Shown here: one piece after another, positions 25,887 through 29,856 of the stretch
Numbering within the stretch: the first letter of the stretch is position 1
Layout of the letters: each line of letters begins with the position of its first letter
Assembly (NCBI GenBank): GCA_963745075.1
Contig: CAVUWV010000008.1
Span: 160,001 to 224,000 of the forward strand
DNA: 64,000 nt
Direction of reading: 5' to 3'
DNA from: Candidatus Hydrogenedentota bacterium
GTDB taxonomy: Bacteria; Hydrogenedentota; Hydrogenedentia; Hydrogenedentales; SLHB01
Position numbers and translations under genes: made by a program
The notes under the pieces: generated by a model
The model's input: the letters and a program-made list of their open reading frames with translations, nothing else
Told to the model about the DNA's origin: nothing
Database searches by the model: none

Positions 25887-28310
25887 CTACCGATTGTTCT
25901 GGGGCGGGGCAAGCACGTAGGACTTGCCACGACGAAGGATCAGGATGTCGTCGGCCTTGGTGAGCGTTACCGTCTGCTCTTGGGGATTGAACTCGCCGGC
26001 CGACCATCCATCGAAGACGTCGTCGCCGACGGAATAGGTGCCGTCTCGCGAACGGCCGTCGGGGAGTATGACGCGAATCGAGAAAACAGCGGGTTTGCCC
26101 GGCGTCGCCATGATGCCGCGCAACTCGACTTGGGGTGCGATCTGCCGCATCAACTCTTCGGACATCCCCGTTTGCGCAGGGGCCGTTCCGCTGGACGCAC
26201 CTTGCGCGACGGATTGCGATGCTTCCTTTTCCCGCCCTTGATCTTCGATCGTAAACTCGCGCTCACGCGTCTTCTCTGGGTCCGCTGACTTCAGCAGCAC
26301 ACGGTACGTGCCCGGTTTCAAGTGATACGTCAGTTTTGCTTGCATGCCCGAGGGAATGGACATCATCTCGTTGCCGGTCATGGGGATTTTGAATTCACGG
26401 CCCGCCGCTTGCACCTTGTCCGGCGGTCCGGCATCAACCCACGACGAATCCCCTATCTTCGTATCGAAGAAGAATTCATAGGCATTTGCCATACTCGAAT
26501 TGGGCGCGAGCACCAACATTCGCGCCCCGTGGTTGACGACGGTAACGGTCGTCTCCACATTTGCGGGGTCGCCTTCGATTGCCTTGGATTCGGCGCGTAT
26601 CACGGGATCTGCGAGACGGTATCCCCCCCAGTCGGTAAAGACCCCGGCGAGCCCAAGCGCCATGACGAGGGCAACCACCGGAAACAACGCCCTTGTGTCG
26701 CGCGACGAGAGAAGCGCCATGGCAGAGGCGGTGCCGATCCCACACATGGCCAGGAGGTAGACAACAATTCCCGTTCGCTGGAGCCAGGGACCGCCCTCTC
26801 GCAGGCGTTCCGCGACAATCCCCATTCCATACTCCGACCCGTGAATGTACACCGCCGACAAAAGACCGGCGAACAGCCATATCGCAGCCAGGAACACCCC
26901 GCGGGCCGCGCGTTGGGGCATGAAAGACACGAGTGCCACGAGAATCGCCGTGACCATCGGAAAGGACACGAGCCAGTGGGCATCCGGTTCCTGGGCGGCC
27001 AGGTTGCGGAATAGGTTTAATGGCGTCGCCTGGCCCGTCACCGGCAAGAACAAGACAAAGAGCATCAGCGCCGCGGATACGAAAGCCACCCAGGATTCTG
27101 CGGGCGTGCGAGACGGCGGCCCCGGTTTCGCAAGTCGGCTGAGGAAGGTGCCACGCAACCGGGGCACTTCTTCCGAGGTATTTGCATTCAACGCGCGGAC
27201 CACCATGACCCGGGCTTTCGCGAGGTCGCTCCGCGCTTTAATGCAACGGCTTTCAATTCCGTTGAATTCGTCGCGATCGATCCGCCCGGCTTTCAATCGT
27301 CCCCGCACGTGATCGAGTTGGGCGTCGAGACCATCCGCGTCGCTCGCGTAGTCTTCGGCCAGTTGCTCCAACCGTTCGCGGCAGAACTGCACGTGAGCCC
27401 GGGCGCGCATGCGTTCTCCGTCCGCTTCAGCCCGGCACTCTTCCACGGATCGCTCGGACATGGCGGCGCCGGTTTTCATCCGTTCGGCTTCGCTCAGTTT
27501 TCGTTCAGCCAAGGCCCGCTCTTCCAGCGCCTCGCGTAGTTCGTCAACGTGCGCGTTCAGCAGGGGTTCGCCGCCGTCCGGCTCCGTGGACAGGCTTACG
27601 CGCGGCAGCGATTTTGGGGTCTGGCTCAAGGGGACGTTCTGATGGCCGCCGGCCACATGCGGATCGTCCACGGCGAGCCATCCGCGAAGATTCGTTTGCC
27701 GCCGTTCAAAGTGATCTCGCTTCTTGCGGAGACGGGTCACCTGCTCCTGGTATTGATCGAAGGCAATCTCGCCCACGCGAACGGCCAGGCTCAGTTCGGC
27801 AATTTTTTCTTGAACGGACGCCAACTCGATGGCCGTCTCCATGAGACGCTGTCGCAGTTCCTCCTCGAGATCGGATTGCAGGTTCTTGATTCGGGTGCGG
27901 TATCCGACCAGTTCCGCGCGATTCGCGTCCTTCTTACCCGAGGTCGGGCCCAGTTCGTCCAGCGCCCGAATCTGCCGGTCCACGGCGGCTTGAAGATTGC
28001 ACAGGAGACGCAACGGTTCGAGCACTTCGAACGGCGCGGTACTCTTCTTGCGCTTCCCGTCGTCGGTATCGGCGGCCGGCGAAACCTCGCGTTCGTCGAT
28101 TGGACGGTGTTTGACCTTACGAAGGAACTCGGGGTGGTCCCGGAGATAGAGTTCGGTGGTGTTGGCCGGTATTTCGTCCGGCCGCGGGATGCGGATCTTC
28201 TGTCGACAGGCCACACATTTTCCGGGGCGCCCGAACATGTCTTCGGACACCTTCATTTTTTGCCCGCAAACGCAGTAAATACGCAGTTGCGCTGCCTCGC
28301 TGCTAGGCAT
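25887..28310 (-). CDS. Membrane protein: zinc ribbon, long coiled coil, ~5 TM helices, extracytoplasmic beta domains with GspC/PilP-like C-terminus
   Basis: GGGAGG RBS; CVCG...CVAC; heptad-rich region; hydrophobic helices; C-terminal VELRGIM...YSVGD..GW. Domain names are inference. Confidence 0.7.
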   Translation of the reverse strand: MPSSEAAQLRIYCVCGQKMKVSEDMFGRPGKCVACRQKIRIPRPDEIPANTTELYLRDHPEFLRKVKHRPIDEREVSPAADTDDGKRKKSTAPFEVLEPLRLLCNLQAAVDRQIRALDELGPTSGKKDANRAELVGYRTRIKNLQSDLEEELRQRLMETAIELASVQEKIAELSLAVRVGEIAFDQYQEQVTRLRKKRDHFERRQTNLRGWLAVDDPHVAGGHQNVPLSQTPKSLPRVSLSTEPDGGEPLLNAHVDELREALEERALAERKLSEAERMKTGAAMSERSVEECRAEADGERMRARAHVQFCRERLEQLAEDYASDADGLDAQLDHVRGRLKAGRIDRDEFNGIESRCIKARSDLAKARVMVVRALNANTSEEVPRLRGTFLSRLAKPGPPSRTPAESWVAFVSAALMLFVLFLPVTGQATPLNLFRNLAAQEPDAHWLVSFPMVTAILVALVSFMPQRAARGVFLAAIWLFAGLLSAVYIHGSEYGMGIVAERLREGGPWLQRTGIVVYLLAMCGIGTASAMALLSSRDTRALFPVVALVMALGLAGVFTDWGGYRLADPVIRAESKAIEGDPANVETTVTVVNHGARMLVLAPNSSMANAYEFFFDTKIGDSSWVDAGPPDKVQAAGREFKIPMTGNEMMSIPSGMQAKLTYHLKPGTYRVLLKSADPEKTREREFTIEDQGREKEASQSVAQGASSGTAPAQTGMSEELMRQIAPQVELRGIMATPGKPAVFSIRVILPDGRSRDGTYSVGDDVFDGWSAGEFNPQEQTVTLTKADDILILRRGKSYVLAPPQNNR

Positions 28311-28690
28311 ACTGGCCTCCCTATACCTTCCCCACTGAAGGGTGCCTGATACACGCAAATGATTGCAAGCTTATCGGATAGCGGAAGTTATCCGCGCTTG
28401 CGATTCCGCCGGATGGGTCCGCGGACGGGAATTGCTGCGGCACGGTGCGGTGTGGGGTGGTTAATTCGACCACACCCGGGCAAGAACGAATCCTGGTCAA
28501 CACTGCCCAAAATCACAAAGGCAACAATTCTTCGTCACATATCTTCGTCACATATTGGTCGGTGGCTGACGAGGTCTCGTCGCTTTGACAGGTTTTTGCC
28601 GGTTCAACGCGCAGTTCGCCGGAATGGCCAGAAACGCATAAACGCAACAGACAAAGTAGTTTACAAAGAAGATGATGGCAAACCTCATGT

Positions 28691-28705
28691 TGGCACAACC
28701 ATTGC
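28691..28705 (+). promoter_or_regulatory. sigma54 (-24/-12) promoter
   Basis: TGGCAC-AACCA-TTGC with exact GG-N10-GC spacing; AT-rich upstream tract and tandem repeat. Confidence 0.8.
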
Positions 28706-28716
28706 GTTATTCTGAT

Positions 28717-29200
28717 CGTCTCGCTTAGAAGACGGAAAAGCACGGTCCCAGCAAGACCCCCGGATCCCCAGCCGGGGGTTCTTGCTGTCCGGAGCACGAG
28801 TTCACACTGCTGCTCGGACTTGGGGGGCGCACCAATCGGAGGGGAGCGTCCGCACTCCGCGGAAGAGGAACGGACATTGAAGCGGGGAATCGACTGCGTG
28901 GTTTCCTTCGCTGACCAGTCGTGGTTCACCCGGCAACCCCGTGCTGCCTACAACGAGGATTGTCGAACGAGTCGTTAGCAGCACGGACCGAGAGCACCGT
29001 GTCCTGATAACGAGTGGGCGTGCTGGCCAGCTCGGGCCAGGCGCGTCGCAGCACGGGGTTGAGGGTGAATCCGTTCGAATGCGTCGCACTTCCCAATCGC
29101 ACCATTTCCTTCCCCGGCGTTTCTCCCCACGCACCCAGTTTCCAACGCGAGTTCGGGTGCTGAACCCTGAAACAAATCTGAATTTTCGACTGGGAATGTG
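28717..29200 (+). ncRNA. Candidate large structured ncRNA of unknown family; 3' end uncertain
   Basis: Starts at the predicted sigma54 TSS; consecutive hairpins plus a perfect 14-bp long-range stem; no credible ORF; the downstream gene has its own promoter. Confidence 0.55.
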
Positions 29201-29278
29201 ACCAAGACGTGGGATGAGCCGACGCGTTCAAGGGCCGTACGAACCGCCCCGGCACCGGCCGCGCTCCAGGGCCTGACG

Positions 29279-29307
29279 TTGCCTGTGTGACTCCGACCCG
29301 ATACAAT
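29279..29307 (+). promoter_or_regulatory. sigma70-type promoter of the DinB-family gene
   Basis: TTGCCT-N17-TACAAT. Confidence 0.7.
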
Positions 29308-29361
29308 GACAGCGGGCTGCGCGGTGGCCCCGCAAAACACGTGTGAAGGCAGGAGGGCGTT

Positions 29362-29856
29362 ATGAACGCGATCGAATCTTTGATGGAGGGGTTTACCCAT
29401 GAATCGGCGGCGACCCGAAAGATCCTGGAGCGGGTGCCGGAGGAACATTTCGGCTGGAAACCCCACGAGAAATCGATGACCTTGGGGCGGCTCGCCTCAC
29501 ATGTCGCCGAGAATGCACAATGGGCGCCGTGGATTCTGACGATGGACGAATTCGTGGTGGAAGAAGGCAGCTACACGCCTTTCGACGCGAAGGATAGGGA
29601 CGACTTGTTGGCCACATTCGATCGCCATGTTAAAGAGGCCCAAAAGGCCTTCGAGGGCGCCGATGAAAGCTCACTCGAAAAGACCTGGCGGATGAAGTGG
29701 GGCGGCGCGGTCGTGGTCGACATGCCCCGGGCAGCGGTCTTGAACATGTTCCTTCTCGGCCATTTGATCCATCATCGCGGGCAGCTTACGGTGTACTTGC
29801 GGATGAAGGATGTGCCGCTCCCGCAACTGTACGGTCCCACCGCCGACGAGCGGTAG
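29362..29856 (+). CDS. DinB/YfiT-like family protein
   Basis: WKPHEKSMTLGRLASH, HLIHHRGQLTVYLR, P.LYGPTADE. Confidence 0.92.
   Translation: MNAIESLMEGFTHESAATRKILERVPEEHFGWKPHEKSMTLGRLASHVAENAQWAPWILTMDEFVVEEGSYTPFDAKDRDDLLATFDRHVKEAQKAFEGADESSLEKTWRMKWGGAVVVDMPRAAVLNMFLLGHLIHHRGQLTVYLRMKDVPLPQLYGPTADER

What the first reader, a model, noticed from the sequence alone, without database searches (positions are those of the whole stretch)
28691..29220. sigma54 promoter driving a ~500-nt, ORF-free, highly structured candidate ncRNA
Seen: a consensus -24/-12 promoter TGGCAC-N5-TTGC (28691-28705). A hairpin starts exactly at the predicted +1 (CGTCT 28717-21/AGACG 28730-34). Back-to-back stems follow: 28749-63/28772-87 (15 bp, one bulge), 28788-96/28811-18, 28848-52/28871-75, 28881-91/28900-12, a perfect 14-bp long-range stem (28934-47/29048-61) extended by TTCACCC/GGGTGAA, and 29131-36/29155-60. 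Ten GGA trinucleotides fall in the first ~180 nt, and a C/U-rich tract lies at 29087-29136. No ORF here looks like a protein, and the next gene has its own sigma70 promoter (29279-29307). Known: Pseudomonas CrcZ is a sigma54-dependent protein-sponge RNA, CsrB/Rsm RNAs use GGA motifs, and staphylococcal RNAIII uses C-rich loops against SD sequences. Inference: this is a stand-alone regulatory RNA. I do not recognise it as tmRNA, RNase P, SRP, 6S or a riboswitch.
Basis: partly seen in the sequence, partly recalled or inferred. Interest (0 to 1): 0.82.

Follow-up and report, generated by a model that had tools for sequence, protein, structure and literature searches.

The report
Small RNA extended by dead gene
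A conserved 70-base regulatory RNA of a little-studied bacterial group has, in one lineage, apparently gained a folded tail made from the backwards copy of a neighbouring gene that died, a rare snapshot of how RNAs acquire new parts.

Summary
The promoter and stems are real, but this is two things, not one 500-nt RNA. (1) 28717-~28790 is a ~70-nt sigma54-type sRNA: 5' hairpin, single-stranded seed, terminator hairpin with a C-rich loop. It has no Rfam match. Covariance models hit 37, then 61, of 135 Ca. Hydrogenedentota genomes, mostly at the same locus, and the stems covary. Hfq was found in 0 of 135. Most likely it pairs with ribosome-binding sites; no target was found. (2) 28802-~29096 is the antisense of the 3' end of a dead glycoside-hydrolase gene. 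Intact copies converge on the same sRNA in three relatives; no intact copy was found in the four genomes carrying the relic. The relic is not decaying neutrally: 94% identity where synonymous sites show 72%, no codon signature, and a 150-nt domain folding far better (z -4.8 to -7.5) than 28 intact orthologues (mean -0.6). The same four genomes lost the terminator U-run. Best reading: read-through recruited the pseudogene's antisense strand as a structured 3' domain (~355 nt). The GGA/CsrA-sponge idea and the 29087-29136 tract are not supported. No expression data; only two deep lineages.

The parts
28533..28590 (+). Four TGAC/GTCA half-sites, candidate upstream activator (bEBP) sites
   Evidence: Positions. 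Similar repeats lie about 90-140 nt upstream in most of 25 homologues. This promoter ties for the most half-sites among 96 intergenic sigma54-like sites in G000. Role inferred.
28691..28705 (+). sigma54 -24/-12 promoter
   Evidence: Conserved in homologues while flanks diverge; RpoN present in the genome.
28717..28734 (+). sRNA 5' hairpin; predicted +1 at 28717
   Evidence: Invariant from 28717 in 8 of 8 aligned genomes; 6 of 7 pairs show two-sided changes across 30 homologues, on a model-fitted alignment.
28740..28749 (+). Single-stranded seed GCACGGUCCC
   Evidence: This seed or one of two close variants in 22 of 30 homologues; unpaired probability 0.77 in the short form.
28749..28787 (+). 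Terminator-type hairpin with C-rich loop AUCCCCAG (28764-28771); the U-run is replaced by GCUGUCC in this lineage
   Evidence: 99.3% of cells paired, 6 of 9 pairs with two-sided changes; C-rich loop in 27 of 30, and at least 4 T in 8 nt after the stem in 26 of 30 but only 3 here.
28802..29096 (-). Relic of the 3' end of a glycoside-hydrolase gene (GH65 C-terminal domain protein), frameshifted; probable old stop at 28802-28804
   Evidence: tblastn E 4e-8; nhmmer E 1.4e-15 over about 28916-29082; Pfam Glyco_hydro_65C E 1.5e-7 in the intact protein and E 0.12, below cut-off, in the relic frame. Homology of 28802-28915 and the stop are inferred from position and weak similarity.
28841..28870 (+). 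Purine-rich block kept in all long forms (GGGGAG...GGAAGAGGAA), without a conserved fold
   Evidence: Near-identical in G000, G004 and G005; segment z about 0.
28922..29070 (+). Derived structured domain: long closing stem of about 22 bp (28925-28947 with 29048-29069) enclosing hairpins
   Evidence: z -7.5, -4.8 and -5.6 in G000, G005 and G004; kept across 27 substitutions better than simulations.
29071..29150 (+). C-rich, G-poor stretch; sequence not conserved; possible Rho site ending the long RNA
   Evidence: C/G counts 35/13, 29/17 and 27/18 in the three genomes; Rho present; role inferred.
29279..29307 (+). sigma70-like promoter of the next gene (DinB family, 29362-29856)
   Evidence: the site is also conserved in G003-G005.
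25887..28310 (-). Divergent ~810-aa gene of unknown function; the positional marker of the sRNA
   Evidence: Beside the RNA in 20 of 30 R1 loci, 12 of 20 further R2 loci and 4 of 4 more.

Best explanation
An ancient ~70-nt sigma54-driven sRNA of Hydrogenedentota, switched on by an enhancer-binding protein, most likely represses mRNAs without Hfq by pairing its seed and C-rich loop with G-rich ribosome-binding regions (inferred; targets unknown). Ancestrally a glycoside-hydrolase gene converged on its terminator. In the ancestor of G000 and G003-G005 most of that gene was lost, the U-run was mutated, and transcription ran on into the antisense of the gene's last ~290 nt. That sequence gained a long closing stem and has since been kept by selection as RNA, giving a ~355-nt sRNA. 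Most likely job of the tail: a protective 3' structure after Rho-type termination that also tunes access to the seed (seed unpaired 0.77 in the short form, 0.27-0.57 in long forms). Shown here: conservation, origin, constraint, structure gain. Inferred: transcription, read-through, function.
For: Short RNA; Hfq in 0 of 135 genomes. Origin of the tail. Intact gene convergent on a sigma54 promoter plus short RNA in 3 of 30 gene loci (G007, G013, G116). The four long-form genomes form one clade (100/99) sister to G001/G002, which have the short form and the gene elsewhere; the relic is closest to their gene. Constraint: G004-G005 relic 289/307 identical against 409/567 at four-fold sites and 81% and 85% in the flanking intergenic DNA (Fisher p 2e-16, 1e-6, 9e-4). 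G000-G005 identity by codon position is 34/30/31 of 38, against 79/86/46% in three neighbouring genes. Structure gain: 28 intact orthologous segments have mean z -0.57, sd 1.15, best -3.18. Random placement of the same 27 substitutions reached the observed energy in 0 to 3 of 1000 runs. The + strand folds better than the - strand in 3 of 3.
Against: No expression data in hand. Only two deep lineages, so just 3 of 120 consensus pairs show a two-sided change. Enrichment of substitutions in unpaired sites depends on the reference fold (p 0.03 and 0.003 with G000's fold, 0.64 and 0.66 with G005's). The G004-G005 simulation is weak (p 0.25 and 0.03). The inner hairpins differ between single-sequence folds. 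The domain's borders were chosen on the stem, which favours it over the controls. The minus strand also keeps structure (p 0.03 and 0.004). Weak U-runs also occur in short forms (G113, G016), so U-run loss does not prove read-through. The drop in seed access also appears when G002's unrelated downstream DNA is folded in (0.32). No conserved target was found.
Confidence: 0.55

Rival explanations
1. The sRNA still ends at ~28790. The relic is a separate structured element, for example an RNA made on its original minus strand from a promoter near the dinB promoter, possibly antisense to or sponging the sRNA.
For: The minus strand also folds better than shuffles (z -5.1, -3.1, -3.9) and survives the simulation test. 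The purine-rich block reads as a C/U-rich anti-SD on the minus strand. This would parallel OxyS, which arose on the coding strand.
Against: The + strand scores better in all three genomes; substitutions in the long stem give G-U pairs on +; no minus-strand sigma70-like promoter in 28300-29500; the U-run loss coincides with the relic within the genus.
Confidence: 0.15
2. The relic is a non-functional pseudogene. Its similarity is left over from recent, separate gene losses or from recombination, and the long stem arose by mutational perfection of a quasi-palindrome.
For: It is clearly coding-derived; lesions differ between G000 and G003-G005; only 4 genomes carry it.
Against: G004 and G005 share the internal stop yet are 94% identical there against 72% at synonymous sites (79-80% in the nearest gene parts: zf823 start 58/72, dinB 55/72, CYTH 55/67). 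Third positions are far above the saturated G000-G005 level (31/38 against 46%, p 9e-6). Both relics end at the same place.
Confidence: 0.12
3. The long RNA is a sigma54-driven leader or attenuator controlling read-through into the dinB-CYTH genes.
For: dinB and CYTH follow on the same strand in all four long-form genomes and in none of the other 26 loci tested.
Against: dinB has its own conserved sigma70-like promoter; about 200 poorly conserved nt separate it from the domain; no alternative folds are shared.
Confidence: 0.08
4. The RNA is a CsrA sponge, and the tail was kept because it adds GGA sites.
For: CsrA is in G000 and 104 of 135 genomes. Family f11 (CsrA in 1 of 23) and G011 lack CsrA and a convincing RNA. 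Long forms carry 11-12 GGA, about 7 of them at shared positions.
Against: 1 of 30 short forms has two or more ANGGA and 6 of 30 have no GGA. Only 3 of 12 GGA in the G000 long form are unpaired above 0.9. Many CsrA genomes have no detected RNA, and kin are not independent.
Confidence: 0.07
5. The relic is kept because the + strand now encodes a small new protein.
For: In G004 against G005, 4 of the 5 changes in the 38-codon block fall at third positions of the + frame and are silent there (read).
Against: G000 is frameshifted in that frame; G004 and G005 share neither start nor end; several frames were looked at.
Confidence: 0.03

Closest known systems
Hfq-independent C-rich sRNAs: Xanthomonas sX13 (PMC3771888), S. 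aureus RsaE and RNAIII UCCC motif (PMC2790875)
   Same: 5' hairpin, terminator, and unpaired UCCC/CCCC motifs in the most conserved parts; no need for Hfq.
   Different: No sequence relation shown; sigma54-type promoter; a different phylum; pairing and targets untested.
Campylobacter FlmE/CJnc230 (PMC11187230)
   Same: Two stem-loops flanking a short single-stranded anti-SD stretch; expression depends on RpoN.
   Different: FlmE is processed from the flgE mRNA; this RNA has its own promoter and no flagellar target was predicted.
OxyS, born from a peroxidase mRNA 3' end (10.1101/2021.10.18.464853)
   Same: The 3' fragment of an eroded protein gene survives as RNA.
   Different: OxyS and the 62 overlaps in that paper map to the coding strand and keep the gene's regulon. 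Here the antisense strand appears to be added as a domain to an older, independent sRNA.
CsrB/RsmY/RsmZ and CrcZ protein sponges (recalled)
   Same: sigma54 promoter (CrcZ); some GGA; CsrA present.
   Different: No repeated ANGGA loops or CA repeats; Hfq not found in the phylum.
sigma54-transcribed sRNAs GlmY/GlmZ and Qrr (search listing; details recalled)
   Same: sigma54 promoter with upstream activator sites and a stand-alone short RNA.
   Different: No Rfam match; the GlmZ and Qrr systems need Hfq (recalled).

Membership tests
Any Rfam 15 family | Score at or above the gathering threshold | tested here: not met
   0 hits in the window; only chance hits at E up to 10; in 10 homologue loci the only hit over an RNA was 23.7 bits against 80.
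tmRNA, 6S, RNase P, SRP | Being the genome's copy of that RNA | tested here: not met
   All four found elsewhere in G000.
Csr/Rsm sponge RNAs | Many ANGGA motifs in loops | tested here: not met
   1 of 30 with two or more ANGGA; 3 of 12 GGA unpaired in the long form.
Csr/Rsm sponge RNAs | CsrA encoded in the genome | tested here: met
CrcZ-type Hfq/Crc sponge | Hfq present | tested here: not met
   0 of 135 genomes; controls ring in 5 of 14.
C-rich anti-SD sRNAs | Conserved unpaired C-rich motif | tested here: met
   Loop C-rich in 27 of 30; loop unpaired 0.99.
C-rich anti-SD sRNAs | Conserved pairing with target ribosome-binding sites | tested here: inconclusive
   No recurrent target among 20 fetched of several hundred pattern matches; G000 scan unremarkable.
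C-rich anti-SD sRNAs | Repression of translation in vivo or in vitro | not testable with these tools
   Needs reporter or toeprint assays.
sigma54-dependent transcripts | Conserved -24/-12 site, RpoN and upstream activator sites | tested here: met
   activity not measured.
sRNAs derived from eroded genes (OxyS type) | Homology to the 3' end of a gene found intact at the same locus in relatives | tested here: met
sRNAs derived from eroded genes (OxyS type) | RNA on the coding strand, under the old gene's promoter | tested here: inconclusive
   Folding and G-U pairs favour the opposite strand; strand not measured.

The most novel reading that the evidence does not exclude
An old sRNA gained a new ~290-nt 3' part, with a 150-nt folded domain, by losing its terminator and taking over the antisense strand of the dead gene next door. 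Selection then rebuilt that coding relic into a multi-stem RNA that controls the sRNA's stability or access to its seed: domain accretion in a bacterial RNA, with the protein-coding ancestor still readable and the before-state alive in sister species.
Probability: 0.5. Interest if true: 0.78.

Novelty: new variant of a known kind. Interest (0 to 1): 0.62.

Why it matters
How large structured bacterial RNAs gain domains is rarely traceable because the source sequence is lost. Here the ancestor (a convergent gene), the unextended RNA (sister species) and the extended RNA can all be compared, so the steps are testable. It also yields a conserved regulatory RNA family for a phylum in which Hfq was not found. 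As a warning for scans, ORF-free structured DNA behind an sRNA can be the antisense of a pseudogene, and such relics should be tested for constraint and not simply dismissed.

Tried and rejected
Expression: no RNA holder listed, which is no evidence either way; read laying was not used. Targets: duplex scan of the seed over my crude set of 5,529 gene calls, flagellar and sigma54 clusters, and an exact-complement pattern in 54 family genomes, of which 150 of 364 matches were listed and 20 fetched. These were unrelated, mostly coding matches; one SD-like site in G013 stood alone. Extra long forms: none beyond G003-G005 among 135 genomes; of the weaker hits, those of G001, G002, G043, G048 and G115 fall in intact copies of the gene and the rest are short and were not examined. 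The exact 19-mer scans gave 10 genome and 4 metagenome loci; the long forms among them repeat the G003-G005 sequences, and one metagenome hit (L026) shares only the 19-mer. The region upstream of the marker gene in 40 genomes (39 without an R2 hit) gave 2 matches, G122 (already hit) and G032, so the family looks patchy, or too diverged in f3, f5, f11 and f13. The weakest R2 hits (G048, G049, G079) look like bare terminators without the promoter and are not counted as members. A clean palindromic activator motif was not found. The intact glycoside hydrolase had no NCBIfam or PDB match. Earlier scan findings: nothing in 3 look-ups. Literature: searches listed no paper on this RNA, or on an antisense pseudogene domain added to an sRNA; subscription papers and supplementary motif tables were not searched.

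Full report
Setting. Named records sharing the RNA's first 19 bases are mostly titled Ca. Hydrogenedentota or Hydrogenedentales (8 of 10). The element lies between a divergent ~810-aa gene of unknown function and a DinB-family gene. The window has no Rfam hit. The genome's tmRNA, 6S, RNase P and SRP RNAs lie elsewhere.

Observation. TGGCAC-N5-TTGC occurs 38 times in the genome. Here it is conserved while its flanks diverge, and conservation of the body starts exactly at 28717. RpoN is present.

Part one: a ~70-nt sRNA. BLAST hit 9 of 41 genomes. In G001, G002, G012 and G015 the match stops after ~70 nt, at a hairpin followed by a U-rich run. Covariance model R1 hit 37 of 135 phylum genomes and R2 hit 61 of 135; both models include the promoter, and a few of the weakest R2 hits are bare terminators. 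The hit is beside the same marker gene in 20 of 30 loci, 12 of 20 further loci and 4 of 4 more, in families f1, f5, f8, f10 and f12, so these are positional orthologues. On the 30-sequence model-fitted alignment, 92.9% of cells pair and 16 of 20 pairs change on both sides, above all 500 shuffles and all slid controls; the main terminator helix is 99.3% paired (a fitted alignment leans toward its structure). The loop is C-rich in 27 of 30, the seed or a close variant is in 22 of 30, and only 1 of 30 has two or more ANGGA. Hfq was found in 0 of 135 genomes and CsrA in 104 of 135. This anatomy matches Hfq-independent C-rich sRNAs: sX13 (PMC3771888, passages read), RsaE/RNAIII (PMC2790875, passages read) and FlmE (PMC11187230, passages read). 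I infer pairing with ribosome-binding regions. No target survived comparison.

Part two: a dead gene, read backwards. Weak BLAST hits in G001 and G002 lay inside a minus-strand gene. The C-terminal 201 residues of that protein, searched against all of G000, hit only window 29096-28962 (51% of 45 aa, E 4e-8). The protein has a Glyco_hydro_65C domain and has matches in 70 of 135 genomes, but was not found in G000 (90% complete), G003 (99%), G004 (72%) or G005 (91%), the four genomes with the extension. A DNA profile from 16 intact genes hits the region at E 1.4e-15. In 3 of 30 gene loci (G007, G013, G116) the intact gene converges on a sigma54 promoter plus a homologue of the short RNA, which I take as the ancestral arrangement. 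On a tree of 18 marker proteins the four long-form genomes form one clade (100/99), sister to G001/G002, whose gene is the relic's closest relative among 16 (55% against 53% or less).

The relic is under constraint. G004 and G005 share an internal stop and a frameshift, yet the relic is 289/307 identical, against 409/567 at four-fold sites in three neighbouring genes and 81% and 85% in the flanking intergenic DNA. Between G000 and G005, four-fold sites are saturated (43%), but the relic is 78% identical in gap-free columns (alignment z 20.8 against 6.5 and 1.7 for the flanks). Its identity by old codon position is 34/30/31 of 38, unlike the genes' 79/86/46%. So most divergence happened without protein constraint but under nucleotide constraint. 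The 28922-29070 domain folds at z -7.5, -4.8 and -5.6, while the same segment of 28 intact genes (of 30 loci; two did not yield the segment) gives a mean of -0.57 and a best of -3.18. Placing the same 27 substitutions at random reached the observed energy in 0 to 3 of 1000 runs, and the observed arm duplex in 0 to 7 of 1000. Within the genus, the U-run is intact in G001/G002 and replaced in the four relic genomes.

Results against this reading. There are only two deep lineages, with 3 two-sided changes in 120 consensus pairs. The paired/unpaired test depends on which fold is the reference. The G004-G005 simulation is weak, and the minus strand also keeps structure. The domain's borders were picked on the stem. 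The proximal 136 nt are conserved but not unusually folded. Some short forms have weak U-runs too. Nothing here shows transcription.

Mechanism. Shown: conservation, ancestry, constraint and gain of structure. Inferred: activator-dependent sigma54 transcription from 28717; read-through past the weakened terminator; ending in the C-rich stretch after 29070 (C/G 35/13; Rho present); and protection or tuning of the seed by the new domain (with the caveat that unrelated downstream DNA gives a similar drop). Overall confidence 0.55. The short sRNA alone is about 0.9, and a functional role of some kind for the relic about 0.8.

Comparison. Gene erosion as a source of sRNAs is known from OxyS (10.1101/2021.10.18.464853; I read the abstract, introduction and first results, part 1 of 4, and ran a word search). 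There the RNAs map to coding strands, and the words antisense, opposite strand and convergent do not occur in the text. Six searches (listings and abstract starts) and passages of a 2026 review (PMC13501541) showed no report of this RNA, or of an antisense pseudogene domain added to an existing sRNA. Subscription papers and supplementary motif tables were not seen and could hold the short RNA. CsrB, CrcZ and Qrr features are recalled.

Verdict. The short RNA is a new family of a known kind. The extension is a new variant of gene-to-RNA exaptation, well supported in sequence, thin in sampling and untested in expression. Interest 0.62.

Noticed in passing
L063:1071-1252 (-), G015: A 6S RNA (57.9 bits, over the cut-off) lies divergently about 250 nt upstream of the short RNA's promoter in this genome.
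   Followed up: no
window 25887-28310 (-): ~810-aa protein with an N-terminal CxCG motif, coiled coil and membrane segments; matches in 124 of 135 phylum genomes, with no Pfam family over the cut-off and no NCBIfam hit.
   Followed up: partly
L030 (G001:C98), L048, L050: Matches to the glycoside-hydrolase gene contain one stop each in G001, G079, G078 and G037. In G001 it is internal, suggesting decay or an assembly error; in the others it may just be the gene's end.
   Followed up: no
L014:1341-3110 (-): The ~730-aa glycoside-hydrolase-like family is widespread in the phylum, but only its last domain matches Pfam and it has no PDB relative by sequence.
   Followed up: partly
G014 contigs C9, C10, C14, C17, C18, C19: An identical 24-nt stretch recurs 11 times in the pattern search, probably a repeat or insertion-sequence family.
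   Followed up: no
G000 C17:66260 (-); C15:148569, C21:93168, C30:46829; C10:255657; C28:126292; C34:93842: sigma54-type sites precede rpoN itself, three near-identical pilin-like genes and several chaperone-like genes (names recalled from the N-terminal sequences), hinting at a broad sigma54 regulon.
   Followed up: no
Family f11 genomes: CsrA was found in only 1 of 23 genomes of this family, against 104 of 135 overall; Hfq in none of the phylum.
   Followed up: partly
L105-L110 (families f10 and f12): Several distant homologues carry CUCCU or CUCC in the terminator loop, an exact anti-Shine-Dalgarno word, and some a C-rich 5' hairpin loop.
   Followed up: partly
L026:1416-1434: A metagenome contig shares the first 19 bases of the RNA but lacks the promoter, seed and terminator.
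   Followed up: no
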